From Candidatus Krumholzibacteriota bacterium (lineage in GTDB: Bacteria > Krumholzibacteriota > Krumholzibacteriia > JAJRXK01): DNA of 64,000 nucleotides. The notes under the pieces were generated by a model, which did not search any database, was not told the origin of the DNA, and saw only the letters and a program-made list of their open reading frames with translations. Of this stretch, positions 19,642 through 41,428 are shown piece after piece (position 1 is the stretch's first letter; the number at the start of each line of letters is the position of its first letter). Location: positions 32,001-96,000 of the forward strand of contig CAWDWO010000007.1 in the NCBI GenBank assembly GCA_963806035.1. Reading direction: 5' to 3'. The position numbers and the translations under genes are program-made.

Positions 19642-20396
19642 CGCGCTTCCCTCCCCTCTGGCCGGGCAAGTTCCAGCGCGAGATAGGGTCCCGCATCGAT
19701 ACTCGACACCAGAGGGAACGCGAGCGCGAGATTGAGTGAGGAAAATCGCAGTCCCAGATGCAGGCTGCCCCCCCTTGCGTCACCCCGGTACGCGAGCGAA
19801 AGCGGAGCGAGCAGCAGCTCGAGACCCGCGCTCCAAATGCCTCGCTCCTCGAAAGGGGAGTCCTCTCGCATGAGCGCCGCCGCCCAAGCGCTTCCTTCCA
19901 GCTCGAATACGTATGCGGCGCTCGAGGGAAGTCGAACACCTTCATGCTCCAGAGGAAATTCCTGCTCGATACCGAAAGCGAAGCCGCGCGCCGTGAGCAC
20001 TAGAGCCAGTTCACCCCGCGAACTCAGCTCGCTGGCGATCGTCTCCACCTCTCTCTTCTGGCGCTGCACTCGGGCGTGCACGCGGAACCCGGTCCCGGTG
20101 AATCGAAACCCCAGTCCCAGCTCCTGCTCGGAATAGGCTGCCGCGCGCAGCTGGCCGGCAAGAGTCCAGACGAGAACGGAGGAACTCAGGCCGAAGGCTC
20201 CCTCCAACCAGCTCTGACTGGAGGGCGCGAAGCTGACCGGGTTTCCCGCACCCAAGCGCAAACGGGCAGAGGGTGCGCGCATCCAGCAATCGCCGGGCAG
20301 AGCTTCCATGCGCCTCGGACCCGAAAAGGTTTCGGCGTGTGCGCTGAGCTGAAGGATGAAGAGGAGGGCGATGACGAGCAGCCCCGGCCACCTCAT
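19638..20396 (-). CDS. Hypothetical exported protein, probable small beta-barrel (PorQ/PorV-like?)
   Basis: Signal peptide MRWPGLLVIALLFILQLSAHA, amphipathic beta pattern ('YSEQELGLGF'), ATGA-coupled to both neighbours. Confidence 0.6.
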   Translation of the reverse strand: MRWPGLLVIALLFILQLSAHAETFSGPRRMEALPGDCWMRAPSARLRLGAGNPVSFAPSSQSWLEGAFGLSSSVLVWTLAGQLRAAAYSEQELGLGFRFTGTGFRVHARVQRQKREVETIASELSSRGELALVLTARGFAFGIEQEFPLEHEGVRLPSSAAYVFELEGSAWAAALMREDSPFEERGIWSAGLELLLAPLSLAYRGDARGGSLHLGLRFSSLNLALAFPLVSSIDAGPYLALELARPEGREAR

Positions 20397-22021: not shown

Positions 22022-22106
22022 GTGACGCACCTCCCGGGAGACTCGAGCGAAGGAGGCGCGAAATTTCTCAGTGCAAAAGCGAGAAAGAAGCCGGCGGCGA
22101 AAGAGC

Positions 22107-24341: not shown

Positions 24342-24490
24342 CGCGATTCCACTGCTCCGGGAAGGCTCTTGAAAGAGTCGGGGTGCGGGGCCGACCCGAG
24401 GTCCACGCGTTCCTTCGCGGCGAGGACGAAGTTAGGCGTGGAGGACTTGCTGAATACTCTACATACGATGGGACCCGATTCGCCACCCGG

Positions 24491-24522
24491 AAACAAAAGC
24501 GCCGGCGGAGTCCGCCGGCGCT
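24491..24522 (-). terminator. Intrinsic terminator closing the giant-protein operon
   Basis: Inverted repeat AGCGCCGGCGGA-N-TCCGCCGGCGCT followed by TTTGTTT on the minus strand. Confidence 0.8.
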
Positions 24523-24547
24523 CAGGAGTTCAGGAAAGCGGATTTTC

Positions 24548-24907
24548 TCAGGTCGTCGCCGATGCGCTCACGGCCTCTTCGACCGTGGCGAAGGCCTCGA
24601 GGATGTTCTGGAATTCCAACAGTTCGAACACTTCGTAGACGTCGGGAACCATGCCAACCAAGCGTAAGTCGCCGCCGTTTTCGCGGATCTCGCGAATGAC
24701 GCTGATGAAGATGCCCCAGCCGGCCGAGGAGATGTAGGAGACCCGTGAGAGGTCCACGATGATCTTGTAACGCTTCGACTGAATCAGGGACTTGATCTCC
24801 CTCTCGAATTCCGCCGAGGTGGTCGTGTCGATGTAGCCTGCCACTTCCAGGACCTGCTGATCCGGGCAGGATTCGTGCGCCTTCGAAATGACCATGATCC
24901 CATCCAT
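24548..24907 (-). CDS. STAS anti-anti-sigma factor (RsbV/SpoIIAA-like)
   Basis: G.IDTTT, 'DLSRVSYISSAGWG' phospho-Ser motif, 'VFELLEF'. Confidence 0.93.
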   Translation of the reverse strand: MDGIMVISKAHESCPDQQVLEVAGYIDTTTSAEFEREIKSLIQSKRYKIIVDLSRVSYISSAGWGIFISVIREIRENGGDLRLVGMVPDVYEVFELLEFQNILEAFATVEEAVSASATT

Positions 24908-24963
24908 CGAAAGCCCATCTCTTTCTATGCTTGAGCTACCTTAGCTAAGCTATTGCAGCAGAA

Positions 24964-27486
24964 TTAGTTAGGTATTTTTCCCGTTCCGGTGTCCACGGGC
25001 TCCATTCCCGGCTCCTGCGACACTGGCGGCTGCTCTTCATCCGTGTGCAAGCTTTGGTCCAAGCCATCGCCGTGATCGGTCTGATTCTCCAAAGGGGCCC
25101 CCTTCTGGGGATTCAGCCCGCGGCGCCGCAGATAGAGGCGCCGTTTGGACTCGTTGCTGAGGTCCAGGCGCACCAGCTCGTCGTAGACGATCTTGGCATT
25201 GGCCTCGTGACCCAGCTCGCAGAGGTGATCGGCCAGGCGTTTGGCACCCAGGCCTGGATCCTTTCGCACCAGCTCCAGAATCGCCTCGCGCCCTTCGACG
25301 GTGAGGCGCCGCATTCCGGACTGCGAGGCCCGGCCCGCGAGGGCCTCCTCTCCCCCGCGTTCTCTCATCCGTCGCCAGCGGTAGAAGGTGGAAACGGAGG
25401 TGCCGTAGCTCTGGCAGGCCTCCTCGATGCTCATCCCCTCGAGTTCCACCATGTCCAGCAAGCGCTGCCGGCGCTCGATCTCCAGCGAGGCCGGCCGCAA
25501 CTTCTCCTTCACCGCCACCACCGTGATGTCGTCGTTTTGCGCGTTGCCTCCGGTGAAGGCCGCGATGTCCTCGTTGAACGCGGCGATGAATTCCTCCGCC
25601 GTCCGTCCCGCATTCTTGCGCACACACTCGATGAGGCGCTGCTCGCCGTACTGCTCACGTGCCGCATTCATCGCTTCGGTCACGCCATCGGTGTAGATGA
25701 GAAGCAGATCGTCCTGTTGCAGCTGGACCTTCTCCACTTCGATCGTCTTGGAGAACAGCTCCGGATCAGGCAGCGAAATCCCCACCGGGAACCCGGCTGG
25801 ATTCAAGAAGAAGACCTCATCGGTTTCGATGCGATACAAGAGCATCGGATTGTGACCGGCCGAGGAGTAGCTGATCACGCGATTGCGCGAATCGAGGATG
25901 ATGTAGAACAGGGTGATGAACATCCCGCGGCGCATGTCCTCGGTAATGAAAGTGTTGACGCGGCTCATCACGTCGCTGGCCGAGTGATTTCCCCTCGCCT
26001 CCATGCGCATGGCGGTGCGGATCATCGTCATCACCAGACTGCCCGGGATTCCCTTGCCCGAGACGTCCGCGACCACGATTCCCACCGTGTCCTCGTCCAC
26101 CGCGAAGAAGTCGTAATAGTCGCCGCCGACCTCCGCTGCCGCGCGGTACATCGCTGCGATCTCGTAACCGGAGAGATCCGGCATCGCGGTCGGCAACAGG
26201 GTGTGTTGAATCTCCCGCGCGAGCTGCATTTCCTTCTGGAGTCGTTCCTGCTCGACCAAATGCGATTGTGCGTGACGGAACTTGGATGCAATTTCGTTGA
26301 ACGCGGCCGCGATCGTGGAAATCTCCTCGGGACCGTGCACCTCGATGTCCTCCTCGAGCACGCCGTCCCCGATGGCCAGCACGCCCTCGGTGAGCTGCTG
26401 GATGGGGCGTACGAAGAGATTTACCATCACGAGTATGAGCAGAATTCCCACCACCAGGATGATCAGCCCGATTCCCATGGCGTGCAAAAGCGCCGCGCGA
26501 TAGTGCTGCTCCAGGTCCGAGGTCTTCAGTCCCAGCACCACTCGACCCAATTCGACCCTCTTCCCGGATGGCCCTTCGATGTCCACCGGATAATTCAGCT
26601 GCAACACTCGTCCCGAGTCGAATTGGATGCGCGTCCATTCTCCCGCGTTCTTTCCATGATCGATGAGCCGGCCTGGCTCGGGATGCCAAGAATTGAAGAG
26701 ATTGTCCAGGACGCTGTCGGCCCAAATGCTGCCGTCTTTCCCGTGCACTACTCGAGCGAAGGCGATGGTGGAATCGTGACGCGCAAGTTCGCTGACGCCC
26801 TGTTGCAGAAGCGTCCGTTCCACCGAATAGGGATCGCTGCTCGCGAGCACGCTCCTGGACTGCACCGCCAGATCACGCGCGAGCGCCTCAATCCGACTGA
26901 GGTCTTGATCGAAGATGGCCTGCCGCTGTCGAAAGTGCACGACCGAGAGGGCGAGGATCACCAGGAGTGCCAGCCCGAAGGAGGCGCGCAGGGTGAAGCG
27001 CATTCTCAAACTGCGGTGCAGAGCGGAGAACTGAATACCTGGAATCCAGCGATCGATGGACGGACGCCGATCCATGCACATCCGGAGTTCGTTGCTTCCG
27101 TCGACGGTCGTGTAGTCCACCTCGTCCATGATCCGATTGATGAGGTAGATTCCGAGCCCGCCGCGCTTCCCGATCGCCACGTAGTGGTCCAGGTCCGGGA
27201 CTGCAACCGAGCCAAAGTCGAAGGACTCACCGGTATCCTTCAGGATGATCTCCACCTGACCGGCGAAGTACCTTACCCGGATGGTGATCTCGCCACCCTG
27301 ATTGTGATAGGAATGCTGGATGATGTTCGTACAGGCTTCGTCCACCGCGAGCTTGAAATTGGCGGTGTCCGCCGGATCGAATCCGGCCTGCATGCAGATG
27401 CGTGCCACGAAATCGCGTACCTGAGCCAGGTGGCTCTCGCGGGCCTCGATGACGAGCTCCGCCCTCTTGATCCGGCCGCCGATCAC
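24964..27486 (-). CDS. Fusion: RsbW-type HATPase kinase, 2 TM with periplasmic domain, HAMP, SpoIIE/PP2C phosphatase, C-terminal HTH
   Basis: 'LAVDEACTNIIQHSY', 'DTGESF', 'GGLGIYL'; two TM helices; 'VGGDYYD', 'ADVSGKG', 'AGHNP', 'YTDGVTEA', 'DDIT'; 'SIEEACQSYGTSVSTFYRW'. GTG start overlaps the upstream TGA. Confidence 0.9.
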   Translation of the reverse strand: MIGGRIKRAELVIEARESHLAQVRDFVARICMQAGFDPADTANFKLAVDEACTNIIQHSYHNQGGEITIRVRYFAGQVEIILKDTGESFDFGSVAVPDLDHYVAIGKRGGLGIYLINRIMDEVDYTTVDGSNELRMCMDRRPSIDRWIPGIQFSALHRSLRMRFTLRASFGLALLVILALSVVHFRQRQAIFDQDLSRIEALARDLAVQSRSVLASSDPYSVERTLLQQGVSELARHDSTIAFARVVHGKDGSIWADSVLDNLFNSWHPEPGRLIDHGKNAGEWTRIQFDSGRVLQLNYPVDIEGPSGKRVELGRVVLGLKTSDLEQHYRAALLHAMGIGLIILVVGILLILVMVNLFVRPIQQLTEGVLAIGDGVLEEDIEVHGPEEISTIAAAFNEIASKFRHAQSHLVEQERLQKEMQLAREIQHTLLPTAMPDLSGYEIAAMYRAAAEVGGDYYDFFAVDEDTVGIVVADVSGKGIPGSLVMTMIRTAMRMEARGNHSASDVMSRVNTFITEDMRRGMFITLFYIILDSRNRVISYSSAGHNPMLLYRIETDEVFFLNPAGFPVGISLPDPELFSKTIEVEKVQLQQDDLLLIYTDGVTEAMNAAREQYGEQRLIECVRKNAGRTAEEFIAAFNEDIAAFTGGNAQNDDITVVAVKEKLRPASLEIERRQRLLDMVELEGMSIEEACQSYGTSVSTFYRWRRMRERGGEEALAGRASQSGMRRLTVEGREAILELVRKDPGLGAKRLADHLCELGHEANAKIVYDELVRLDLSNESKRRLYLRRRGLNPQKGAPLENQTDHGDGLDQSLHTDEEQPPVSQEPGMEPVDTGTGKIPN

Positions 27487-29498
27487 TTGGGTCCGTCCTT
27501 CTCGCCGGCGCCCTGCTCGAGGCGGTCGATCCGTGCCTTGGCCTCTGCAATGTTGTTCTGAGCGCCCTGGTTTCCGGGATCGATCTTCAAAATCTGCTCC
27601 CACTGTCGAATCGCTTCTTCGTAGTTGCCATCGGTGAAGGAACGGAGGCCCGCCAGGTAGTACTGGCGCACCTGCTTCTCCTCGCTCGGGCTGAGGCTGG
27701 CCGGTCCCGACCTGCGGTGGGCGATCTGGTCGAGAAGCGCCAAGGCTTGCGCATGCTTGGGCTCCCGCTTCAAAACCTCGCGGCAAAGCGCTTCAGCCTG
27801 GTCCAGCTCGCCTTTCGAGAACGCCTCGAGCGCTTCGGTGAAGCGGCGCTCCTGTGCCAGCTCCCCGCGGGCGCGTTCGGCGTCGGCCTGCGCTTGCTCG
27901 CTCTCATGGCGAGCGGCATCCAACTCCGCCTTCCAGCGCTTCAGGGCCGCGGCGGGAGCAGGATTATCCGGGTCGAGAGAGGCTACGACGCTCCAGGCAT
28001 TCAATGCGGATTCCCAGTCGCCTGCCTCCTCCGCCGCGGTGGCTCGTGAGGATGCGCTTGCCATCGCGCTGGCCTCGAGGTCCTCCACCTGCTGACGGAG
28101 ACGCGGCAGCATGGGATAGTCCGCAGCGAGATCGCCCAGAGCGTTCAATTCCGCTCGCGCTTTCAGCGCATCGTGTTGGTCCAGCGCGGCCCGGAGTTGA
28201 TTTTCGGTGTCTTCGATCCGGAGCGTGCGCCGCTGCTCGTCGGCCTTTTGCTGCGTGACGCGCTTTTCCAGCTGCTGCAGGCTTGCCAGCTGGGTCCTCA
28301 GAGAATCATCGGCCACACCAAGACTGCGGGCCCGCGCCAGGCTCTTCTGCGCGTCCTGGAGCGAATCCCGGCTGAGCGCATCCTGGAAATCCTGCACCGC
28401 ACTCGTGATTTGGGCCTTGCGCCAGTTCTCCACGGCTTCCATGCGCGCCTGCATCAACTCTTTGGCCCGCAGTTCGTCGCGGTGACGGCGCCGATCCTTC
28501 ATGTCCTGGCCGAAGTACCAGGAGAGGCTCAAGAACTGGGATGATCCCAATTCTCCGCCCGAACGAAACGCATAGTCCACGGAGTAGTCCCGCCAGCGTC
28601 CACCCAGACCGGCGTTGAAATGGCCATCGTCGTAGCTGAGACGCAGGGTGTAGAGTCCTTGGTACTCGGCTTCCGCGCCCAGTCCGAGACGCTTGGCGGC
28701 GTACTGTGGTTTGTCGTAGACCGCGGCCAACTGGAGAGCCGTGTTCTCGCTGAATTCATGCCGTTTGCTCAGGGCAAAGCGCTGCGCATAGGGCAGCGTG
28801 TCTTCGCGCTCGATGAGCCTGAAGCTCGGTGCGATCAGATTCTGGTATACAAAGGAGAGCCGGACTCCCCCGAGACGCGGAGGGACCCAGGCCAGGCCCA
28901 AGTCCATGCCACCGCTGGTGCTCTTCTCTTCCAGATCCAGGCTGTGGATCTTGGCGCTCGTGCCCAAATCGAGCCTGCCGCCGAGGTACGGCAGCCTTCC
29001 CCCATATCCGTAACTCAAGAAAAGCTGTGTCTCTCCGTAGCTGATGCTTCCGGTGGGTCGGCTGGTACTGTCGTAGGTTTCGATGTCCCCCAGTTTGAGC
29101 CGCAGGAAGCCGATGCCGAAGCCTCCGGCGTTCAGAGTAGGATAGGCGAGTCCCAAGTAGCCGTAGGAGGCTCCGCCATCGAGACCGTAAAGACGGTTGT
29201 AGCTGAAGGTGAGCTGTGATCCTCGAGCATGGGGCAAGAGTGCCGGGTTCCAGAAGCAGGCGCTGGCATCATCGGCCAGGCCCACCATCGTCGATCCCAA
29301 ACCCACTCCGCGCGCGGTAGGACCGAGCTTGAAAATAGACTCGGTGCCTCCACCGTCGTCCGCGGCTCGGGCCAATCCCGCAGGGAAGAAGCACATGAGC
29401 AGAAGCAGCAGAAGGGCAGAAGCCGCGGCTCCGCGCGCGTTCTCACAGCGCGAAGTGTGCCTCGAGGTGGGCACGAAGTTCGGATAGCCGCGCCTCAT
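27483..29498 (-). CDS. PorV/UPF0164-like beta-barrel fused to coiled-coil and TPR repeats
   Basis: 'LGPTARGVGLG...ADDASACFWNPALL' PorV-family N-terminus; barrel ends 'FLSLSWYFG'; TPRs such as 'GNYEEAIRQWEQILKIDPGN'. ATG overlaps the giant gene's stop. Confidence 0.85.
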   Translation of the reverse strand: MRRGYPNFVPTSRHTSRCENARGAAASALLLLLLMCFFPAGLARAADDGGGTESIFKLGPTARGVGLGSTMVGLADDASACFWNPALLPHARGSQLTFSYNRLYGLDGGASYGYLGLAYPTLNAGGFGIGFLRLKLGDIETYDSTSRPTGSISYGETQLFLSYGYGGRLPYLGGRLDLGTSAKIHSLDLEEKSTSGGMDLGLAWVPPRLGGVRLSFVYQNLIAPSFRLIEREDTLPYAQRFALSKRHEFSENTALQLAAVYDKPQYAAKRLGLGAEAEYQGLYTLRLSYDDGHFNAGLGGRWRDYSVDYAFRSGGELGSSQFLSLSWYFGQDMKDRRRHRDELRAKELMQARMEAVENWRKAQITSAVQDFQDALSRDSLQDAQKSLARARSLGVADDSLRTQLASLQQLEKRVTQQKADEQRRTLRIEDTENQLRAALDQHDALKARAELNALGDLAADYPMLPRLRQQVEDLEASAMASASSRATAAEEAGDWESALNAWSVVASLDPDNPAPAAALKRWKAELDAARHESEQAQADAERARGELAQERRFTEALEAFSKGELDQAEALCREVLKREPKHAQALALLDQIAHRRSGPASLSPSEEKQVRQYYLAGLRSFTDGNYEEAIRQWEQILKIDPGNQGAQNNIAEAKARIDRLEQGAGEKDGPK

Positions 29499-32400: not shown

Positions 32401-35400
32401 ACGGGGTCACGCTTTTGTCGACCAGCTCGAGCTGTGATGCGCTGCTCACGCTGAGCGGCGTGGCCGAGGAGTCCGCAGGTGCCGTGAACTCGGCCCCTGC
32501 TACCGTCCCCGTGACGCGCGCCACGAAGCGGTAGTTCCCCGGCGGGGTGGCACTCCCCACTCTGACTCGCGAAGAGAGATCACGCTGACCACCGGCCGCG
32601 ACTGCTCCCAAGGGGTCCTGATCGACCAGGGTGAAATCCGCCGCCGGTGAGGACTGCAATGCCAGCTGCGAGATTCCGACGGAACCCGCGCCGAGGTTTT
32701 CCACCGTGACGCGAACGTTGAGAGTATCCCCCGGTACCGCCTGCGTCTCGTGACTCACCGAGCGAATGGCAAGGCCGCTGACCAGAAACGAGCCCTGCGG
32801 AAGCACGATGAAGCTCGAAACTGCTTGCCCGTGCGTGTCCTGCCCCGCCAGTTGCAGCGTGGGCCGGAACGAGCCCAGAGCGAAACTCGCGGGGAGGGTC
32901 GCCGTGCTGAAATTGAGGACTTGGCTCGACGAGGCCGGCACCACGGTATCGCTGGGGAGCGAGGCGGCGAGGACCCCTCCCTGTCCATCCTCGATCTTCA
33001 GTTGCGAGAGTCCAGCGTCCAGGATTGCGTCGACGCCCCCGGTATTCTGTAGCGTGATGCTGAAGTTTAGATTCTGCCCCGGCACCGCGGCCGCGGGAGT
33101 GAGCGCGCCATCGAGCGCCAGTGAGGCAGGCGACACGAAGATCGCGTCCGCGCTGCCCATGGCGGCCGCGCTCGCGAAGGAGACGGTGACCGTTCCGGCA
33201 GTGAGAGGAGACGCCAGCCGCAGGCCCACCATTCCCGATCCGTCGCTCAGCCTTTGAATCCCGCTGCGCTGGGGATCGAGATCGTCGGAGATGATCGCTC
33301 CTCCGTTTGCGCTCACGTCCACTGAGCTTCCCGCCGCCACCACGTTTCCGAATGCGTCGCGAATCGGTCCCGCGCTCAGCCGCGTCACCGAGACCCCATT
33401 GGCCGTGTTCTCGCTCGGATCCACGATGGGCACCGGAATCGTTCCCGAGGGCGAAGCGGGAACCACCAAGAGATTGTTCAGACTGCCCCCAACCGCGGGC
33501 AGGGCGGCCAGGCTCACGTCCAGGGTCAAGGGACCGGCCTGCTGGGCGCTGAGATCCACCGTGGCTTTCCCCGCCACCAGCGAAGCCGGAGAAGGTGTCA
33601 CGCTCAGCACGGATGGACTCGAGTTGAACGCCAGCTCGCCCGCCAGGTCGACCTCGTTGCCCGCGGAGTCCCTGGCGACGATCGTGAGAGAGTTGGGAGT
33701 TCCCGCGGTGAGAAGCGTGTCGCTGATCGAAAGCTCGAGATGGTCCGCGGAGCCTGGCAGAGCCTCTACCGTCCAGCGAACGGTCTCCAGCGAGCCGGGC
33801 GTGCCGTCCAGGATGGAGGCGCCGACCCGGTGCTCTCCGCTGCTCGTGGAAAGATGGAGTACAAAGGACAGCTCTCCGTTGGCATCGGTCGAAGCGAGAC
33901 CATCATCCGTGGGTACGCTGGGGTCTTCCAGACTCGCTCCCGAAGGAGCGCTCAAGAGACTCAGACGCACGGGAACCCCACTGACCGCATTGCCATAGCT
34001 GTCGGCGACTCGCGCGAGCAGCGTGACCGTCGTTCCGGCCGGCGCGCTCTGCAGCGTGTCACCCACGGCGCTGAGCCGGAAGGCGGCGCCCGCCGACACT
34101 TCGATCAAAGGGCTCTGGGCGTTGATTGAAGGCTGCGATTTCAGGCTTGCCGTGACGGAAAACTGCTCCACCAGGGTGTCCCGCGCACTGGCCGAGAGAA
34201 GGCCCGCGTTCAGCGCGCCTTCAGAGGGAGTCAGGACGATTCCGGTTCCGGTGGAACTCAGCTCGACGGAGTCCGCTGCCGCCAGCACCCGGTTGCCCGC
34301 TGCATCGAGGGCGGTGATCGTCAGGGGAAGAGCCTGACCCGCTATCACGCTGGTCTGCGAGGGAAGCACGGCGAGCGAGGCAATGGGTCCGGCCACGGTA
34401 TTCACCACGAAAAGGACCGTCTCCCGCGCGACGGGACTGCCATCCAGAATTCCCACTCGCAGGCGCAGGGTCTGCACCGTCGAGTCGGTGAGTACAGTGA
34501 AAGTCGCATGGCCGTTGGCGTCGCTGCTTGCGGGGCCGGCCTGGAGTGTGCCTCCCTCCAGCTGCAGGACATTCAGCGTCTGGTTGCCAACTGAGTTGCC
34601 CAAGGCATCCAGCACCTGCACCCCGAGGTCCACGCTCGAACCCGCGGTCACGCCGGACAGGGTATCCGCGCCCGTGCTCACCAGTTCGTAGGCACTGCCC
34701 GAGCCCACACTCAGAAGCGGACCCAGATAGCCCTTGCCCTTGGCGCTGAGACGAATGTGATAGCTTCCCGCGGTGTCGATGCGCTGCAGGGAAGTCGAAA
34801 AGCTTCCCCCGATGAGCTGACCCTCAGAGACGTTGAGCGGAAGCGGGACCACCACGGTGCTGTCCGCACCGTCGACCAGGTCGAAGGAAAAGCTGTCTGA
34901 TGCGGCGCTGGCCAAATTTCCAAAGGCGTCGTACGCCGTTGCACTCAAGGAGAAGGGGGCTCCCGCGGTCGCGGTCGCGGGATAGGCGAGCTGATACTCA
35001 GCCACCATCGTGCCGGCCAAGATTTGCAGGCTCCCGCTATCTCCGTCCAAGAGCGCCGCCGAATCGTCCGCGCTGAAGGCGTGCGTACCGGCCAAACTTC
35101 CCTGGTAGTAGACCGTGGCCTGTCCGCTGACCGCGAGGTTCAGCGTATCGAGATACGGTCCGCCGCTCTGCGCCGAGAAAACCAGACCGGTCGCGGGATC
35201 TGCGTGCACGATGACGGTGGCCGAAGAGCTCGAACTCAGATTGGCGAAGCTATCCACCAGCGACAGCCCGAAGCTGCCTTCGACTCCAGCCTCGACCGCG
35301 CCCGCGGGCGGGGAGAGCCGAATCGCGCTCGCGTTCCCCACTACCGAGCTATAGACGAGATCGTTGACCGCGCCCGAGGAGACTTGACTCGAGCTAGCAT

Positions 35401-38047
35401 CCAGAACGTCCTGAAGTCCGGCCGTGGAGGGCGCGCGGTACATCACGTGGATCAGCCCGTTCCCATCGGTCAAGCCGCGCTGCGTGGCCAGACCGAGAGA
35501 ATCCGTCTCTCCCACTCCGGAGAGAATCCCGTCCAGCAAATCGCTGGAAAACAAGGTCACCTCGGCGCCCGCTACTGGATTTCCATAGGAGTCGCTCGCC
35601 AAAGCCGCGACGAGTTCCGTGCCACCCACCACGAGGTTCCTCGGCCCGTTGGGTTGAAGGACGAGACTGCTCATCGGACCCGCAGTGGCGATGGCGTTGA
35701 AGTTCACCGAAGGCGCGAAGGAAGATTCCGCTGACAGACTCTGGAGACCCGCCACCGTGCCCAACTCCCAGAGAGCACAGCTCGCGTATCCGAGCGAATC
35801 GCTCAGGGCCGTGTTCTGGTCGCCGGGAGTGAGAGGGTCCGTGTCCACACGTCCACCGTCGGCCAAAATGAACTGCACGGTGGCTCCGCTCACTGGATTG
35901 CCAAAGGCATCCAGCGCGCGCGTCCGCAGAGCTTGCGCGACGGCAGTCCCCACGGTGGCGCTCTGTCCGTCTCCCGCGGTCAGCTGCAGATCGCTTGCGG
36001 GCGCTGCGAGGAAGCTCAGATCCGCGCTGCCGGATGCCGATCCGTCGCTGAGGATGACTGTCAGATCCTCCGCCAGCGTGTTGGTGAGTTGCAGCTCGAC
36101 TCTTCCCGAATCGGCCGCTGCGAAGCTGTAGTCCGCCTCGCCGCCGGGCAGAGGAGTCAGGCTTCCCGCGCCGCTGCTGGCCCAGTTCAGATTGCTCCCG
36201 TCGCCCGAACTCGAACTCGAAAGGTGCACCGTGCCGCCGTAGTTACCCACGCGATTTCCCGTGGCATCCAACGCGTCCGCGCGAATTGCGAGGGCCGTTC
36301 CCGCGCTTCCGATGGCGCCTGCCGGCAGGCTCAACGCAAAATGGTCCAGTGGCCCGGCTACGAATTCCAGATTCAGTGGGGGACCTACCGGCAAGCCGTC
36401 GAGGCTCGCCTGTGCTGTTCCCGCGCCGGGGGTGGTGGAGCGCAAGCTCGCATGAAACTGTCCCGAGGCATCGGTGCTCGCGTCCAGTTTTTCGAGCTGC
36501 CACGCGGCCGGGAGCGTGAAACCGATGCGACTCGAGTCGATGTTCGCTACGGCATTGCCGAAAGCATCCTCCATACGCAGAAGCAAGCCGATGGTGTCGA
36601 CTCCGTCGGCGACCGCGGAGGCATCGCCGGAGAGCGTGGTCGAGGAAGAATCGACGGAAGAGGCCGTGAACTCGACGAGGGGTTGGGAGCTGAGCGTCAC
36701 GCCCGCGGCCGTTACGCTCACGGGCCTGACGCCAGCGCTCGTCGAACGAAGCCTTGCCGCGAATTTGCCGTCAGCCGCGCTCGATCCACTCAGCTTTTCC
36801 ACTGCCACCGCACTGGAGCTGATCACGATCTGCGCGCTGTCGACGCCAGCCACTGCATTGTCGAAGGCATCGCGCAGGGTTGTCTGCAGGGTCGTGAAAT
36901 CAGAGCCGTCGGCGAGCGCCGGCCCGGCAAGGACAGCCGTGGAATGATCGGGGTCCACCGGTCCCGCGCTGAAGTCGAGATCGAGAGTGTCGCTCAGCGC
37001 CACTCCGCCCACTGAAACCGCGAGACGGCGGGCCGATGCGACAGTGGTGCGCAGAAGCGTCGCGAAGGACCCATCCAGGGCCGAGTTCGCCGCCTGCTTT
37101 TCGACGCTGAGCCCATCCCCCAATACCGTGAAAACGATGGAGGAGGAATCGACTTGCGAAACCGCGGTTCCGCCGCTGTCGCGAAGAACGAGATCCACTT
37201 GGATAGCGTCGACACCGTCGGCCACGGCAGACGTGCCGCCACTCAGACTGGATTGTACCGGGTCGACTGCTCGTGGTGTGAAGATCACGGTGGGGTGAGT
37301 GTCGAGCGTCGAGCCGTCCACGACCGCATCCAGGCTCCAAGAGCCCGCCAGAAGCGTTCTGACTCGCAGGGGAAAGCTGCCGTCGGCCGCGCTGGCCGCT
37401 GTCGGCTTCTCGACCGAATAAGCGGGAGCTGACAGTGCAACCGAAATGCGCGCGCTGTCCACCCCGGCAATCGTGTTCCCGAACGCGTCGCGCAGAATCA
37501 GAGTGACCGAGCTGAAGGCGCTCCCGTCGGCCACTACCGGAGAAGTCGCACTCACGGAGCTCTGCTGAGAATCGACTGCGGCGGGAATCAGGGTGATGGT
37601 GGTTTGATCGAAACCCAAGTCCGGAGCCGCGGAAGATCCGTCGACCACGGTGAGCCCGACCGGCAGCGAGTTGAGGTGGGTGGCGCGAAACAGGAGGTCC
37701 ACTCCGGAGGAATCGGCGGCAATGCTCGCTGAACTCACCGCGGGACCCCCCACGAAGCGGTGATAGCTTCCGGAGGAGTTGTCGCTGAAGAGGTCGATCA
37801 CCTGTGAGGCGGACACCGGCGAGGGATCACCGGTACTGTCCACGCTGAGGACCCGAATGGGCAGGTACTCCCCCGCGGTCGCCGTGTCCGAGGAGGTCTG
37901 GATCATCAGCGCGGATGGGGGTTGCGCGGCAAGGGAGGCGCGGGGCAGAAGCACACAGAAGCACACCGTGCTGAGGAGCAGGGAAACTCGTCTCAACGGT
38001 GCGAGACGATCGTGAATGCGCGTGAGTGGTCCCGGCATGGTGTTCAT
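29495..38047 (-). CDS. Giant (2850 aa) Ig-like/invasin-repeat surface protein with T9SS/FlgD-type C-terminal domain
   Basis: Signal peptide, many 'D.FGN.V' Big_1-like units, S/A/L/G-rich composition, C-terminal 'YPNPF...IFDLLG...WDGRN...NGVYICR'. Confidence 0.88.
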   Translation of the reverse strand: MNTMPGPLTRIHDRLAPLRRVSLLLSTVCFCVLLPRASLAAQPPSALMIQTSSDTATAGEYLPIRVLSVDSTGDPSPVSASQVIDLFSDNSSGSYHRFVGGPAVSSASIAADSSGVDLLFRATHLNSLPVGLTVVDGSSAAPDLGFDQTTITLIPAAVDSQQSSVSATSPVVADGSAFSSVTLILRDAFGNTIAGVDSARISVALSAPAYSVEKPTAASAADGSFPLRVRTLLAGSWSLDAVVDGSTLDTHPTVIFTPRAVDPVQSSLSGGTSAVADGVDAIQVDLVLRDSGGTAVSQVDSSSIVFTVLGDGLSVEKQAANSALDGSFATLLRTTVASARRLAVSVGGVALSDTLDLDFSAGPVDPDHSTAVLAGPALADGSDFTTLQTTLRDAFDNAVAGVDSAQIVISSSAVAVEKLSGSSAADGKFAARLRSTSAGVRPVSVTAAGVTLSSQPLVEFTASSVDSSSTTLSGDASAVADGVDTIGLLLRMEDAFGNAVANIDSSRIGFTLPAAWQLEKLDASTDASGQFHASLRSTTPGAGTAQASLDGLPVGPPLNLEFVAGPLDHFALSLPAGAIGSAGTALAIRADALDATGNRVGNYGGTVHLSSSSSGDGSNLNWASSGAGSLTPLPGGEADYSFAAADSGRVELQLTNTLAEDLTVILSDGSASGSADLSFLAAPASDLQLTAGDGQSATVGTAVAQALRTRALDAFGNPVSGATVQFILADGGRVDTDPLTPGDQNTALSDSLGYASCALWELGTVAGLQSLSAESSFAPSVNFNAIATAGPMSSLVLQPNGPRNLVVGGTELVAALASDSYGNPVAGAEVTLFSSDLLDGILSGVGETDSLGLATQRGLTDGNGLIHVMYRAPSTAGLQDVLDASSSQVSSGAVNDLVYSSVVGNASAIRLSPPAGAVEAGVEGSFGLSLVDSFANLSSSSSATVIVHADPATGLVFSAQSGGPYLDTLNLAVSGQATVYYQGSLAGTHAFSADDSAALLDGDSGSLQILAGTMVAEYQLAYPATATAGAPFSLSATAYDAFGNLASAASDSFSFDLVDGADSTVVVPLPLNVSEGQLIGGSFSTSLQRIDTAGSYHIRLSAKGKGYLGPLLSVGSGSAYELVSTGADTLSGVTAGSSVDLGVQVLDALGNSVGNQTLNVLQLEGGTLQAGPASSDANGHATFTVLTDSTVQTLRLRVGILDGSPVARETVLFVVNTVAGPIASLAVLPSQTSVIAGQALPLTITALDAAGNRVLAAADSVELSSTGTGIVLTPSEGALNAGLLSASARDTLVEQFSVTASLKSQPSINAQSPLIEVSAGAAFRLSAVGDTLQSAPAGTTVTLLARVADSYGNAVSGVPVRLSLLSAPSGASLEDPSVPTDDGLASTDANGELSFVLHLSTSSGEHRVGASILDGTPGSLETVRWTVEALPGSADHLELSISDTLLTAGTPNSLTIVARDSAGNEVDLAGELAFNSSPSVLSVTPSPASLVAGKATVDLSAQQAGPLTLDVSLAALPAVGGSLNNLLVVPASPSGTIPVPIVDPSENTANGVSVTRLSAGPIRDAFGNVVAAGSSVDVSANGGAIISDDLDPQRSGIQRLSDGSGMVGLRLASPLTAGTVTVSFASAAAMGSADAIFVSPASLALDGALTPAAAVPGQNLNFSITLQNTGGVDAILDAGLSQLKIEDGQGGVLAASLPSDTVVPASSSQVLNFSTATLPASFALGSFRPTLQLAGQDTHGQAVSSFIVLPQGSFLVSGLAIRSVSHETQAVPGDTLNVRVTVENLGAGSVGISQLALQSSPAADFTLVDQDPLGAVAAGGQRDLSSRVRVGSATPPGNYRFVARVTGTVAGAEFTAPADSSATPLSVSSASQLELVDKSVTPSRIHHGANLLLKARVKNNGGATVSLNAASSFASFGGGLWSGALSSSLALAPGQEAELSFGPTTVDAALGSQSQDLQLHLAGTENSFPFSADLIQVDAISTETPADLVLAATPLDPAAALRGSTVGFKLSLTNQGEAQLVLDPLTTRLDFGEPQGARIGAVLDPLSPASVPTGTTQLAFSPLALPSDLILGTPQGYLRVRGTQNGLPFDSDLPLPNGTLTLFDPAGLRILSTTALNPSAPLSQVNTRQHIGVRVVVGNNAGEAIDSLTVRLAGSATPASSAADISVPRLESSEIDTLYFDTSITTTPGPESLRALIVRALSSTTQQEIVPQSPLDDLANLQVQRPVSLSFRAELVDSVDPLAMSVSPGQIFSVRFAVDQDASVQQSGSWLPVEVDFNSLQGFTLDSQSTLPVQLDPSNPEATIRLVAPSTVQTVDLVAALSRVDLDANDPDARPLTSASSRTLQLEVFGGTAFDTCSLSIISPQGAQDTVLSTGQTFTLQGEVDGPANLQQRSLELLLPPQLALVGGNARQMLTDGQTTVNWQVLCPNTPAAGLLLRTVAHATDVQSSSVLADTCASVNLQVVEAAHAVPRLTILEPNSARDRGELPPGAVVELHGNFVLSGSAQTLPPARLHLSVPSGFSILDGKTASVDLVDPSDEVVWRLQGPTSLDLGVQKITLTAEQIPLDENSGLPAGEATAESSVALSILADPLRLEISDLSDTGPLIGSDRIYERFAVHISNGHPEAVHFTQLALNLVDDAGQPFANPSSFLQTIQVRRTDGTQNWSAAVNGNPVIVPVDLVIDSDSSAAFRVGVQAKADADYVSFRFALDGGSASILDSGGFALSYALLDEEGGGHSLILAGPSVTAKASSEFDAHSYPNPFVPSREPATLSYSLPQSGPVEIEIFDLLGKRVRQWSFAAGSSQAEPGIHDGDVLWDGRNGLGQEVRNGVYICRVRAAGGEIYFRIAVTR
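36350..37590 (-). repeat. Four tandem ~103-aa Big_1-like repeats inside the giant gene
   Basis: Repeating 'D..S...ADG[S/V]...L[R/E]D.FGN..A.[V/I]DS..I...[V/L]EK.....DG.F...LR[S/T]T' units. Confidence 0.8.
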
Positions 38048-38082
38048 CGCAACCCAAGTGTCTGTGGATCAAGAACTTGGAA

Positions 38083-38098
38083 AGCAATGACCGTGCCC
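38083..38098 (-). promoter_or_regulatory. Sigma54 (-24/-12) promoter candidate for the giant-protein operon
   Basis: Minus strand GGGCACGGTCATTGCT: GG-N10-GC, near consensus, about 35 nt upstream of the ATG. Confidence 0.7.
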
Positions 38099-38206
38099 GG
38101 AGCGCGGGAATCCAAAACAGTATTTCAGGAAGGTTTCACGGGGGTCTCGGGCAAGAGAATCGCACGATCCCCGGCCGGCGGCGTACAGGAACCGGCCACA
38201 GCGCCC

Positions 38207-38704: not shown

Positions 38705-38785
38705 GTTTCTCTCCCCCGTGAACACGGCTCAAATCCGCCCAGGACGGCGGACTTTGGACCACCCCGCTTCAGCAACGCCCCTGTT

Positions 38786-41428
<2,643 letters not shown>

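What the first reader, a model, noticed from the sequence alone, without database searches (positions are those of the whole stretch)
24491..38098. Sigma54-type operon coupling a giant T9SS-type adhesin, a PorV-TPR fusion and a partner-switching module
Seen in the sequence: promoter, giant Ig protein, PorV-TPR (ATGA overlap), kinase/phosphatase membrane protein (GTGA overlap), STAS, terminator. Established: PorV binds T9SS C-terminal domains at the outer membrane, and RsbW/RsbU/RsbV form phospho-switches. Inference: a trans-envelope signalling chain in which a dedicated barrel holds the adhesin and its periplasmic TPR tail contacts the periplasmic domain of the inner-membrane switch. This would report surface contact or secretion status to the cytoplasm. 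I know of no description of such a system.
Basis: partly seen in the sequence, partly recalled or inferred. Interest (0 to 1): 0.85.

Follow-up and report, generated by a model that had tools for sequence, protein, structure and literature searches.

The report
Giant adhesin, PorV-barrel, phospho-switch cassette
An uncultured sediment-type bacterium encodes, side by side, a giant surface protein, its own outer-membrane barrel with a long inward-reaching arm, and an inner-membrane kinase/phosphatase switch; the same gene set recurs across several little-known phyla, which suggests an undescribed way of wiring the cell surface to signalling inside the cell.

Summary
On the minus strand lie a sigma54-like promoter, a 2850-aa Ig-repeat protein with a type IX secretion tail, a PorV-family barrel with a 330-aa helical/TPR tail (ATGA overlap), a membrane RsbW-kinase/sCache/HAMP/PP2C protein (GTGA overlap), a STAS protein and a hairpin terminator.

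The genes are co-conserved. A PorV-like gene lies directly upstream of 75 of 87 orthologue-grade kinase/phosphatase matches in 201 genomes of the phylum. The same holds in 11 of 11 full-length loci from other FCB-group lineages. A paralogous cassette keeps the same parts in a different domain order. Two more genes downstream, outside the given coordinates, are also conserved: a VWA-like membrane protein and an LTD protein with a secretion tail.

The genome has SprA, PorU, PorV and rpoN. GldK/L/M/N were not found.

A predicted complex of the tail with the sensor's periplasmic domain gave weak support only (0.47, best control 0.00). The barrel-to-cargo contact was not tested.

My literature searches found no description. 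Earlier notes of this scan report the same cassette in at least six other genomes.

Verdict: a real, conserved and apparently undescribed module. The trans-envelope signalling mechanism is plausible but inferred.

The parts
38083..38098 (-). sigma54-type -24/-12 promoter-like element GGGCACGGTCATTGCT
   Evidence: Read. It matches 10 of 12 consensus positions. The own genome holds 109 such hits in 5.34 million positions. A like motif stands upstream of the giant gene in L103, L104, L105, L106, L115 and L026. rpoN is present in the genome.
29495..38047 (-). giant secreted Ig-repeat protein, 2850 aa (Big_1/Invasin_D3 in the N-terminal half, CARDB-like in the C-terminal half), with a type A T9SS C-terminal domain
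   Evidence: N-terminal hydrophobic segment. Homologues of 2400-4170 aa stand at the same place in related loci.
29498..29776 (-). C-terminal secretion/sorting domain (CTD) of the giant, residues about 2758-2850
   Evidence: TIGR04183 24.8 bits, cut-off 23. A profile built from the CTDs of 25 cassette giants scores this one at 123.3 bits, and the next own-genome ORF at 67.9. In all, 55 own-genome ORFs match.
27483..29498 (-). PorV/PorQ-family outer-membrane barrel fused to a helical/TPR tail, 671 aa
   Evidence: NF033709 90.7 bits, cut-off 90. AlphaFold2 model with mean pLDDT 82.9. Best solved look-alikes are 8gl6_F and 6h3i_F of the T9SS translocon entries, then FadL/TodX.
28512..29219 (-). 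14-strand beta-barrel (residues 94-329), preceded by short plug helices (55-90)
   Evidence: Secondary structure of the model. The plug is the most conserved block (0.60 majority share) and the barrel scores 0.47.
27486..28502 (-). presumed periplasmic tail (residues 333-671): helices of 44, 44, 29 and 49 residues, then TPR-like hairpins
   Evidence: The last TPR block (604-663) is as conserved as the barrel (0.50), while the spacer helices score 0.32-0.41. Tail length is kept across phyla: the proteins are 612-700 aa.
24964..27486 (-). inner-membrane kinase/phosphatase: RsbW-like HATPase_c_2, TM, periplasmic domain, TM, HAMP, PP2C (SpoIIE), HTH
   Evidence: 1688 homologues were found, most about 1400 aa with fused STAS domains. 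Nearest solved chains are RsbW 6m36_A, RssB 3es2/3eq2, Rv1364c 3ke6 and 6k4e.
26485..26931 (-). periplasmic sensor domain (residues 186-334), single PDC/sCache fold
   Evidence: AlphaFold2 mean pLDDT 90.8. Foldseek finds the WalK/YycG extracellular domain (5is1, 4ywz; TM 0.66-0.72), DctB, CitA and DcuS. Many homologues carry PF17203 sCache_3_2.
24548..24907 (-). single-domain STAS protein (anti-sigma-factor antagonist type), 119 aa
   Evidence: STAS 75 bits and TIGR00377 68.1 bits. Ser61 aligns with the Ser of the DSSG/DSAG motif in SpoIIAA (1th8_B) and TM1442 (1sbo_A). That this Ser is the phosphorylated residue is recalled.
24497..24523 (-). terminator-like hairpin followed by a T-rich run
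   Evidence: 12 pairs, 10 of them G-C. The scan as a whole found no more such sites than in shuffles (11 against 10.9), but this stem is by far the longest.
22107..24341 (-). conserved neighbour outside the given coordinates: membrane protein of 744 aa (start uncertain) with two N-terminal and one C-terminal hydrophobic segments and a VWA-like DDSGS motif
   Evidence: No family passes threshold. Sub-threshold VWA_2 matches fall at the same place in 4 of 6 homologues scanned, and one homologue has VWA_CoxE at 27.6 bits against a cut-off of 26.4. Atlas look-alikes are GATase1_like/VWA membrane proteins, which is a lead only. Homologues follow the cassette in 10 of 10 orthologous downstream regions, and in L103-L106, L024, L025, L026, L028 and L030.
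20393..22030 (-). conserved neighbour outside the given coordinates: secreted protein with two lamin-tail domains and a FlgD_ig-type CTD, 545 aa
   Evidence: LTD 75.6 bits in 2 stretches; FlgD_ig 22.9 bits, below its cut-off. Homologues stand directly after the VWA-like gene in the same loci.

Best explanation
This is one copy of a conserved envelope-spanning module of uncultured FCB-group bacteria; here the organism is probably a Krumholzibacteriota. I propose the following chain of events.

1. The giant Ig-repeat protein is exported by Sec. It crosses the outer membrane through the SprA translocon by means of its type A C-terminal domain.
2. The translationally coupled PorV-family barrel acts as this cargo's own shuttle or anchor. 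It holds the C-terminal domain, as PorQ holds PorZ or PorP/SprF-like barrels hold type B cargo.
3. The barrel's C-terminal 330-residue helical arm lies in the periplasm. Its conserved terminal TPR block reaches the single-Cache periplasmic domain of the inner-membrane protein.
4. Through the HAMP domain, that contact sets the balance between the protein's own RsbW-like kinase and its PP2C phosphatase. Both act on Ser61 of the STAS protein.
5. The phosphorylation state of STAS, together with the HTH domain in this lineage, then changes gene expression or another cytoplasmic target.

Shown: the parts, their order, their co-conservation, the folds, and intact catalytic and acceptor motifs. Inferred: steps 2 to 5. 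Step 3 has weak computational support. The direction (outside-in) and the output are the least certain.
For: Anatomy. The 4-nt start/stop overlaps (ATGA, GTGA) argue for coupled expression.

Co-conservation within the phylum. P0003 matched at E<=1e-60 in 98 of 201 genomes. By family: f4 40/42, f6 22/23, f7 8/8, f8 11/12, f9 1/1, f1 4/8, f2 4/12, f3 3/7, f5 4/87. A PorV-like match lies directly upstream on the same strand for 75 of 87 matches with E<=1e-100, most with gaps of 0-70 nt.

Regions read in full. I fetched 20 regions from 18 genomes. A CTD-bearing giant is present in 19 of 20. A barrel-plus-tail ORF is present in all 20, though truncated in L110 and split in L111 and L120. STAS is fused or adjacent in 19 of 20.

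Other lineages. From the 79 loci I took the 11 with a full-length match: records labelled Eisenbacteria, Calditrichota, KSB1, Ignavibacteria, Latescibacterota, Omnitrophota, or unlabelled. The barrel-plus-tail ORF is directly upstream in 11 of 11. The CTD giant is present in 10 of 11; the eleventh is cut by its contig end. STAS was found in 9 of 11.

Permuted paralogues. The paralogous cassettes L121 and L122 keep giant, PorV-TPR, Cache/HAMP/PP2C, RsbW-like kinase and STAS, but with the kinase on a separate protein or at the C-terminus. A PorV-like match is also upstream of 24 of 46 weaker phosphatase matches.

Barrel subfamily. The 21 cassette barrels fall on one side of a branch from the 9 other PorV-family barrels of this genome, with SH-aLRT 85.

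Tail design. Conserved plug, variable spacer helices, conserved terminal TPR, constant length.

Predicted complex of tail 340-671 with sensor domain 186-334. The tool's verdict was weak support: median 0.47 of three runs, best control 0.00. The mark was reached by 116 of 157 solved complexes and 2 of 215 mismatched pairs. At 0.60 or under, only 18 of those 157 solved complexes passed, as did both passing mismatches. The runs agree in at least 63% of contacts and the partner's pLDDT is at least 73.

Catalytic motifs are invariant: GGDYYDF, DVSGKG, TDG and NDD in the PP2C domain, and the N and G boxes in the kinase domain. The STAS Ser is kept.

Precedents in print:
- The PorZ CTD is retained on PorQ, and cognate PorV-like barrels are hypothesised to protect CTDs (PMC10202324, passages read).
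- A T9SS CTD binds the sensor kinase PorY in the periplasm (PMC12152298, abstract).
- Cognate PorP/SprF shuttles exist for type B cargo (PMC12618676, abstract).
Against: - No experiment exists, and no RNA data could be obtained.
- The complex prediction is only a weak pass. By the tool's own calibration such a pass is more often wrong than right unless the guess was likely beforehand. No contacts were reported.
- The barrel-to-CTD contact was not tested.
- The sensor domain has a Cache fold, and Cache domains usually bind small molecules. A soluble ligand could therefore be the real input.
- The PorV-family score barely passes (90.7 against 90), and the tree branch that unites the cassette barrels is not strongly supported (85; quick method, with long-branch warnings).
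- No SigB/F/G-type sigma factor passes its cut-off in the genome (best 130.8 against 234.35), so the classical partner-switch output is missing.
- The C-terminal region of the kinase/phosphatase differs between lineages: HTH here, HTH plus 3 STAS in most of the phylum, TPR in the Calditrichota/KSB1 loci. No single output is conserved.
- The PorKLMN motor and ring were not found. How CTD cargo is secreted in this organism is therefore itself unsettled.
- The 12 of 87 orthologue-grade matches without a listed upstream barrel could be real exceptions, though most sit at contig ends and the barrel list was cut at 150 of 466 rows.
Confidence: 0.5

Rival explanations
1. Co-regulation without contact. 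The kinase/phosphatase senses a soluble periplasmic or environmental ligand through its Cache domain and controls expression or deployment of the giant protein. The barrel's tail has a structural role, such as spacing, peptidoglycan contact, or docking to the SprA machinery in a system that lacks PorK/N and PorW-like parts. It does not touch the sensor.
For: The periplasmic domain is a single PDC/sCache fold like the ligand-binding CitA, DcuS and DctB. Membrane PP2C phosphatases with periplasmic Cache-type domains exist elsewhere, for example the periplasmic domain of Chlamydia RsbU, 6mab. GldK/L/M/N were not found, so other periplasmic adaptors may be needed. The complex score is weak. Other large CTD proteins of this genome have their own tail-less PorV-like barrels without any signalling genes.
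Against: The tail and the phosphatase travel together even when everything else is rearranged (paralogous cassettes; other phyla). The most conserved part of the tail is the end farthest from the barrel. The best structural match of the sensor domain, WalK, is a Cache-like domain listed in an integrative model with a partner protein (9a5d WALK-YYCH). The controls for the predicted complex scored 0.00.
Confidence: 0.25
2. The cargo's own C-terminal domain is the ligand. As with PorA and PorY in Porphyromonas gingivalis, the giant's CTD binds the sensor's Cache domain while still in the periplasm. The switch then reports a backlog or flux of this cargo, and the barrel tail is not the signal carrier.
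For: PMC12152298 (abstract read) reports that the CTD of PorA binds PorY in the periplasm and activates PorXY-SigP. The cassette giants' CTDs form a recognisable subfamily that is conserved between phyla (phmmer E 1e-10 to 2e-22 for 110 residues; profile score 123 against 68 for the next ORF).
Against: It does not explain why the barrel always carries a tail of about 330 residues with a conserved end.
Confidence: 0.1
3. Inside-out control. The cytoplasmic state, read through the kinase/phosphatase and HAMP domains, changes the periplasmic domain. That domain then grips or releases the barrel's tail and so controls retention, release or positioning of the giant surface protein. The logic resembles LapD-LapG-LapA.
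For: The physical chain from inner membrane to surface protein is the same as in the best explanation. In most of the phylum the operon also holds a ParA-like ATPase and a TPR protein, which would suit positioning of an envelope structure. The LapD logic is recalled, not taken from a call.
Against: A periplasmic Cache domain, HAMP and then enzyme domains is the usual input-to-output order of outside-in sensors. There is no c-di-GMP or other cytoplasmic input domain on the protein, and no periplasmic protease gene in the cassette.
Confidence: 0.1

Closest known systems
PorQ-PorZ and PorV-PorU of the T9SS attachment complex, and PorP/SprF-like barrels with type B cargo (SprB-SprF)
   Same: An outer-membrane barrel of the PorV/FadL type is paired with a particular CTD protein and often encoded beside it. 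Retention of an uncleaved CTD on a cognate barrel is described or hypothesised (PMC10202324, passages; PMC12618676, abstract; PMC9143113, search listing only).
   Different: None of these barrels is described with a long periplasmic tail or with a signalling partner. This barrel fails the PorV, PorQ and PorV2 equivalog models. The cargo has a type A-like CTD, for which the general PorV is said to serve all cargo in Flavobacterium (PMC12618676, abstract). The organism lies outside Bacteroidota, and GldK/L/M/N were not found.
PorA-PorY-PorX-SigP signalling in Porphyromonas gingivalis
   Same: A T9SS component or cargo informs an inner-membrane sensor about the secretion system, through a contact in the periplasm (PMC12152298, abstract).
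   Different: There the sensor is a histidine kinase with a response regulator and an ECF sigma factor, and the ligand is a small cargo's CTD. Here the sensor is a fused Ser kinase/PP2C phosphatase acting on STAS, and the candidate ligand is the tail of the barrel.
Partner-switching modules with fused or membrane-bound parts: SypE-SypA (Vibrio fischeri), SiaABC (Pseudomonas aeruginosa), Rv1364c (Mycobacterium tuberculosis), membrane RsbU of Chlamydia
   Same: An RsbW-type kinase and a PP2C phosphatase act on one STAS protein, and these systems often control surface or biofilm traits rather than a sigma factor. SypE joins kinase and phosphatase in one chain (PMC3610818 and PMC10120452, abstracts in the listing). 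Sequence matches: SiaA model NF038263 69.3 bits, Rv1364c 3ke6, RsbW 6m36. The periplasmic domain of Chlamydia RsbU appears among the fold matches (6mab).
   Different: SypE has a central receiver domain and is cytoplasmic. SiaA lacks the kinase. None is reported next to, or coupled with, an outer-membrane barrel and a giant secreted protein. The domain order RsbW-TM-Cache-TM-HAMP-PP2C-HTH is not that of any of them.
Cell-surface signalling by TonB-dependent transducers (FecA-FecR-FecI type)
   Same: The logic is the same. An outer-membrane barrel carries a periplasmic extension that touches an inner-membrane regulator, so that an event at the surface changes transcription. This is recalled knowledge, not from a call.
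   Different: Those are 22-strand TonB-dependent barrels with an N-terminal extension, an anti-sigma factor and an ECF sigma factor. Here there is a 14-strand PorV/FadL-type barrel, a C-terminal helical tail and a phospho-switch. This is a likeness of function only, not membership.

Membership tests
T9SS type A CTD cargo | C-terminal sorting domain matching TIGR04183 (Por_Secre_tail) | tested here: met
   24.8 bits against a cut-off of 23, residues 2758-2847. This is a borderline pass. The PNPF...DGRN...GVY...KIAV pattern is shared with 24 other cassette giants.
T9SS type A CTD cargo | N-terminal Sec signal | tested here: inconclusive
   A hydrophobic segment at residues 15-41 follows a basic N-terminus. 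No signal-peptide predictor was available.
T9SS type A CTD cargo | Genome encodes the translocon and the CTD-processing proteins | tested here: met
   SprA scores 560.6 bits summed, cut-off 200, and is cut by the contig end. PorU scores 443.2 against 420 and lies next to a PorV-family gene of 175.5 bits.
Complete Bacteroidota-type T9SS | PorK/GldK, PorL/GldL, PorM/GldM, PorN/GldN | tested here: not met
   GldK: best 88.5 bits against a cut-off of 350, covering only the C-terminal half. GldM, GldL and GldN: no match. No control genome rang for these models and the genome is 93.7% complete, so absence is not proven.
PorV/PorQ family (NF033709) | Score over the family cut-off | tested here: met
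   90.7 bits against 90, and 92.8 on the genome search. Borderline.
PorV/PorQ family (NF033709) | 14-strand FadL-like barrel resembling solved PorV | tested here: met
   The model has pLDDT 82.9 and 14 long strands. The top Foldseek hits are 8gl6_F (E 3.2e-9, TMt 0.58) and 6h3i_F (E 3.2e-7, TMt 0.66), followed by FadL/TodX. That chain F is PorV is recalled; its length of 345-367 residues fits.
PorV, PorQ or PorV2 proper (equivalog models) | Score over NF033710, NF033711 or NF052325 cut-offs | tested here: not met
   18.8 against 250, 50.8 against 220, and 44.8 against 325. In a tree the cassette barrels separate from the PorV next to PorU.
PorV/PorQ family | Binds the CTD of its cargo | not tested
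An experiment is needed.
RsbW-RsbU-RsbV partner-switching module | RsbW-type Ser kinase domain with N and G boxes | tested here: met
   HATPase_c_2 99.3 bits; RsbW models 78.6 and 71.2 bits, both below their equivalog cut-offs. D49, E50, N54, D84, G86 and G109-G112 are invariant or nearly so.
RsbW-RsbU-RsbV partner-switching module | PP2C (SpoIIE-type) phosphatase with metal-binding aspartates | tested here: met
   SpoIIE 167.1 bits. D456, D459, D474, D600, D652 and D653 are invariant in 20 sequences.
RsbW-RsbU-RsbV partner-switching module | STAS substrate with the phosphorylatable Ser | tested here: met
   STAS 75 bits; TIGR00377 68.1 against 53.45. Ser61 aligns with the motif Ser of 1th8_B and 1sbo_A.
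RsbW-RsbU-RsbV partner-switching module | A target sigma factor held by the kinase | tested here: not met
   No SigB/F/G match passes its cut-off (best 130.8 against 234.35; five sigma70-type matches). There is no sigma gene in the cassette. A target elsewhere is not excluded.
SypE-like dual kinase/phosphatase | Central receiver domain between the kinase and the phosphatase | tested here: not met
   No Response_reg match. The middle of the protein is TM-Cache-TM-HAMP.
sigma54-dependent promoter | GG-N10-GC elements with correct spacing upstream of the gene, and rpoN in the genome | tested here: met
   10 of 12 consensus positions at 38098-38083. rpoN 450.5 bits.
sigma54-dependent promoter | A cognate AAA+ enhancer-binding activator and a mapped transcript start | not tested
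   No activator was sought, and no RNA run was listed.

The most novel reading that the evidence does not exclude
The cassette is a new class of trans-envelope sensor. A giant surface fibre is held by its C-terminal domain in a dedicated PorV-type barrel. Load on the fibre, or its loss or absence, moves the barrel's plug and its 330-residue periplasmic arm. The arm's TPR tip gates a Cache-HAMP module that flips a fused Ser-kinase/phosphatase acting on STAS. This would be the first signalling role for the PorV family. It would also be the first outer-membrane-barrel input to a partner switch, and it would serve as a surface-contact or surface-integrity sense shared by at least five candidate phyla of the FCB group.
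Probability: 0.3. Interest if true: 0.9.

Novelty: new variant of a known kind. Interest (0 to 1): 0.72.

Why it matters
Type IX secretion and partner switching are both well studied, but only apart and mostly in a few cultured model organisms. Here they are joined in one gene string that is nearly universal in several families of an uncultured phylum and recurs in other FCB-group phyla.

If the barrel's arm really talks to the switch, three things follow. It would show how bacteria with a PorV-type cargo handler can sense the state of a surface protein. It would give a function to the many unexplained PorV paralogues (13 family matches in this 2.67-Mb genome). It would also add a third design of outer-to-inner-membrane signalling, beside TonB-dependent transducers and the PorA-PorY link.

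The system offers a tractable test: two soluble domains of about 110 and 150 residues, plus a kinase/phosphatase assay on a 119-residue substrate.

It also bears on how CTD cargo is secreted in lineages where the PorKLMN motor and ring were not found.

Tried and rejected
- RNA evidence for co-transcription and the transcript start: no RNA holder was listed.
- A sigma-70 promoter scan of 23500-39500 found 1 site, inside the giant gene on the other strand, against 1.8 expected. It was not pursued.
- The periplasmic domain alone gave no Pfam match at E<=0.001. Its fold was settled by structure prediction instead.
- The 744-aa neighbour gave no NCBIfam match at E<=0.1, no Pfam match better than VWA_2 at E 0.031, and no solved relative. 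The Atlas gave only leads (after one unanswered try).
It returned mostly loci that share only the phosphatase domain, and I examined only the 11 of 79 with a near full-length match. Close relatives came from the genome search instead.
- I asked whether the upstream DUF4388 gene belongs to the cassette. It is conserved only within the window's own family (L103-L106), so I left it out.
- I asked whether the HTH is the conserved output. I rejected this as a general statement because the Calditrichota/KSB1 versions end in TPR repeats instead.
- A mirror-tree or co-variation test of tail against sensor was considered and not run. Twenty pairs are too few.
- The predicted complex of tail and sensor domain returned 'weak support'. 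It is reported with its counts under the best explanation.
Full report
**What is there**

The window is contig C7:32001-96000 of a 2.67-Mb assembly in 41 contigs, 93.7% complete. GC is about 62% throughout, with no compositional break at the locus. Housekeeping genes flank it: purD, an aminotransferase, pyruvate phosphate dikinase, glyQS, mgtE, aspS. This is therefore ordinary chromosome, not an island.

On the minus strand the following features lie in order:
- a sigma54-like element, GGGCACGGTCATTGCT, at 38098-38083
- a 2850-aa ORF at 38047-29495
- a 671-aa ORF at 29498-27483, whose ATG overlaps the preceding TGA
- an 840-aa ORF at 27486-24964, whose GTG overlaps the preceding TGA
- after 56 nt, a 119-aa ORF at 24907-24548
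- a hairpin with a 12-pair stem at 24523-24497, followed by a T-rich run

**Identity of the parts**

*The giant.* It has six Big_1 stretches, Invasin_D3 and CARDB-like domains. Its C-terminal domain passes the T9SS type A model narrowly, 24.8 bits against 23.

*The second protein.* It passes the PorV/PorQ family model narrowly, 90.7 against 90. It fails the specific PorV, PorQ and PorV2 models. An AlphaFold2 model built on 20 homologues has mean pLDDT 82.9. It shows short plug helices, a 14-strand barrel (residues 94-329) and a wholly helical tail (333-663) with helices of up to 49 residues and TPR-like hairpins at the end. Its best solved look-alikes are chain F of the two Flavobacterium T9SS translocon entries, 8gl6 and 6h3i, followed by FadL/TodX. 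I recall that chain F is PorV; the chain length fits.

*The third protein.* It is an RsbW-type kinase domain (13-137), then two hydrophobic segments that enclose about 150 residues, then HAMP, a PP2C phosphatase (464-660) and an HTH domain like the N-terminus of IS481 transposases (668-786). The enclosed domain folds with pLDDT 90.8 into a single PDC/sCache domain. It most resembles the extracellular domain of WalK/YycG, then DctB, CitA and DcuS.

*The fourth protein.* It is a STAS protein. Its Ser61 aligns with the motif serine of SpoIIAA and TM1442. Kinase and phosphatase motifs are invariant across 20 homologues.

**The genome around it**

SprA, PorU with an adjacent canonical PorV, and rpoN are present. 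GldK, GldL, GldM and GldN were not found. No control genome rang for the last three models, so this is 'not found', not 'absent'.

The genome has 13 matches to the PorV family and 55 ORFs that match a CTD profile. At least two other large CTD proteins, on contigs C35 and C8, are followed directly by a PorV-like barrel. Those barrels have no tail and no signalling genes follow them. A private barrel for a big cargo therefore seems to be a habit of this lineage. The tail and the switch are special to this cassette.

**Co-conservation**

*The kinase/phosphatase alone.* It has 1688 homologues in the protein collection. The nearest are 92% and 86% identical. Most are about 47% identical, about 1400 aa long, carry fused STAS domains, and are named, where named at all, from Krumholzibacteria or Latescibacteria MAGs. 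By contrast the barrel-tail protein gave only 13 hits in that word-based search, because it diverges fast.

*Across the phylum.* Whole-genome searches of 201 genomes found the kinase/phosphatase in 98. It is almost universal in five families and rare in family f5, at 4 of 87. I combined that list with the barrel-tail matches in the same genomes. Of the 87 matches at E<=1e-100, 75 have a barrel match directly upstream on the same strand. The 12 without are mostly at contig ends. The barrel list was also cut at 150 of 466 rows, so 75 is a lower bound.

*Regions read in full.* I read 20 regions from 18 genomes:
- Eighteen carry the orthologous string. In 17 of these a CTD giant of 2700 to over 4100 aa precedes the barrel. 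L110 has a truncated barrel and no giant.
- In the window's own family, STAS is a separate gene.
- Elsewhere in the phylum three STAS domains are fused to the kinase/phosphatase, and a ParA-like ATPase, a TPR protein and one or two more STAS genes follow.

*Outside the phylum.* I took the 11 of 79 loci from the species-genome scan that matched over nearly the full length. They are labelled Eisenbacteria, Calditrichota, KSB1, Ignavibacteria, Latescibacterota and Omnitrophota, or are unlabelled. The barrel-tail gene sits directly upstream in all 11. The giant is present in 10; the eleventh is cut. STAS was found in 9. I did not examine the remaining 68 loci, which share only part of the protein.

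**A paralogous cassette**

Weaker phosphatase matches (E 1e-60 to 1e-100) also tend to have a barrel-tail gene upstream, in 24 of 46 cases. Two such loci were read in full:
- L121: giant, PorV-TPR, a TM-HAMP-PP2C protein, then a separate kinase-STAS fusion, then a histidine kinase.
- L122: giant, PorV-TPR, a Cache-HAMP-PP2C-kinase protein with the kinase at the other end, then STAS, then a histidine kinase.

The same parts kept through different fusions and orders is good evidence of a functional unit.

In a quick maximum-likelihood tree, 21 cassette barrels (both paralogues, several phyla) lie on one side of a branch from the 9 other PorV-family barrels of this genome. SH-aLRT is only 85, and the run carried long-branch warnings.

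**Beyond the given coordinates**

Two genes lie after the hairpin:
- A 744-aa membrane protein at 24341-22107. It has a DDSGS motif, sub-threshold VWA matches in several homologues, and Atlas look-alikes of the GATase1_like/VWA type.
- A 545-aa protein at 22030-20393 with two lamin-tail domains and a CTD.

Both follow the cassette in 10 of 10 orthologous downstream regions that I fetched for this purpose. They also follow it in L103-L106, L024, L025, L026, L028 and L030. They were not found in the two paralogous loci, nor in the Calditrichota, KSB1 and Ignavibacteria loci. The conserved neighbourhood here is therefore about 20393-38098, probably as two transcription units.

**The promoter**

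The motif matches 10 of 12 positions of the consensus, which I recalled. About 0.003 such hits are expected by chance in that spacer. A like motif of 9 to 11 of 12 stands before the giant gene in four relatives of the same family, in one other family and in one Eisenbacteria locus. None was found in six other loci, in two of which the gene start is unresolved. Sigma54 dependence is thus likely here but is not a constant of the cassette. No activator was sought.

**How it may work**

The best-supported reading is a relay.
1. The barrel handles or holds the giant's CTD. By analogy, PorZ keeps its CTD and sits on PorQ, and a review hypothesises that cognate PorV-like barrels protect CTDs from cleavage (PMC10202324, passages read). 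Type B cargo likewise uses cognate PorP/SprF shuttles (PMC12618676, abstract).
2. Both ends of a 14-strand barrel face the periplasm, which is general knowledge of such barrels. The tail should therefore be periplasmic.
3. The tail's design fits a spacer with a docking tip. The plug and the last TPR block are the best conserved parts (0.60 and 0.50 majority share), and the long helices between are the least (0.32-0.41). The length is constant across phyla.
4. The one complex job tested the tail (340-671) against the Cache domain (186-334), each with a 20-row alignment in the same genome order. It scored 0.44, 0.47 and 0.48, against 0.00 for all three controls. The tool calls this weak support. 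The mark was reached by 116 of 157 solved complexes and 2 of 215 mismatched pairs. At 0.60 or under, only 18 of the 157 solved complexes passed, as did both passing mismatches. Runs agree in at least 63% of contacts, and the partner's pLDDT is at least 73. Because gene order made the contact likely beforehand, I take this as a modest gain, not proof.

**The output is open**

No SigB/F/G-type sigma factor passes its cut-off. The HTH is present in this phylum and in Eisenbacteria but is replaced by TPR repeats in Calditrichota and KSB1. STAS-only outputs without a sigma factor are known from SypA, SiaC and others (listing and abstracts; sequence matches).

**Rivals**

- The Cache fold usually binds small molecules, so a soluble ligand with a purely structural tail remains a serious rival.
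- The PorA-PorY precedent, in which a CTD binds the sensor in the periplasm (PMC12152298, abstract), makes the giant's own CTD a possible ligand.
- Inside-out control of the surface protein cannot be excluded.

**Novelty**

No paper in the held library joins these elements. The searches were:
- PorV with SpoIIE or STAS
- type IX secretion with partner-switching; 2 papers listed (3 held both terms), neither title concerns such a system, and I did not read them
- Krumholzibacteria or type IX secretion
- PorV, PorQ, paralogue and cargo-specific terms
- T9SS with the candidate phyla; none of the 15 papers listed held 'T9SS'
- 'PorV-like' and variants

The library lacks most subscription journals, and I read no supplements.

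Earlier notes of this scan describe the same cassette on other DNA in at least six genomes, from Krumholzibacteriota, KSB1 and Zixibacteria. They also call it undescribed.
- the phylum-wide adjacency count
- the permuted paralogue
- the two further conserved genes downstream
- the folds of the barrel-tail protein and of the sensor domain
- a controlled, weakly positive prediction of the tail-sensor contact

**Verdict**

The module is real, widespread and apparently undescribed, and it is built from known parts in a new arrangement. The mechanism is plausible but still inferred.

Noticed in passing
window 38207-38725 (-): The gene just upstream of the promoter encodes a 172-aa DUF4388 (PATAN-type) protein (102.2 bits). 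It also nearly passes an MshE-related c-di-GMP-binding motif model (37.7 bits, cut-off 38). It lies upstream of the giant gene only in the window's own family (L103-L106).
   Followed up: partly
own genome: C35:94338-99624 and C8:80583-86440 (loci L123, L124): Two other large CTD proteins are each followed directly by a PorV-like barrel of about 300-340 aa without a tail. One is a Big_5-rich protein of 1452 aa, the other a Glucodextran_C protein of 1654 aa. The genome has 13 PorV-family matches in 2.67 Mb. This suggests cargo-specific PorV paralogues as a general habit of the lineage.
   Followed up: partly
L121 (G157:C7:105000-124900) and L122 (G109:C8:352000-371900): A paralogous cassette exists in the same phylum, also in families that lack the main one. 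It has the kinase domain on a separate kinase-STAS protein or at the C-terminal end of the phosphatase, and a classical HisKA histidine kinase gene follows.
   Followed up: partly
L109:465-2408, L118:18258-18998, L115:18517-19254: In most families of the phylum the operon also holds a ParA/MinD-like ATPase (AAA_31, CbiA) and a 392-aa TPR protein between the kinase/phosphatase and the free STAS genes. Both are missing from the window's compact version.
   Followed up: no
L032:6088-10089, L036:9989-13519, L079:1886-5671: In Calditrichota/KSB1-labelled loci the kinase/phosphatase ends in a block of TPR repeats instead of the HTH and STAS domains. The cytoplasmic output end of the protein has therefore been exchanged between phyla while the input end stayed.
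   Followed up: no
window 18046-19641 (-) and L123:5773-8337: A 531-aa protein with a helix-hairpin-helix (HHH_3, ComEA-like) motif lies just beyond the LTD-CTD gene. A similar 855-aa HHH_3 protein follows the PorV-like barrel of the C35 locus. The link, if any, is unexplained.
   Followed up: no
own genome, whole: SprA, PorU, PorV and 55 CTD-type ORFs are present, but no GldK/L/M/N was detected. How CTD cargo is driven across the outer membrane in this lineage is an open question in its own right.
   Followed up: partly
L103:3169-12013, L108, L112, L120: In several relatives the giant gene, and in L111 and L120 the barrel gene, appears split over two or three frames. These could be assembly errors in repeat-rich DNA or real frameshifts. 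This was not examined.
   Followed up: no
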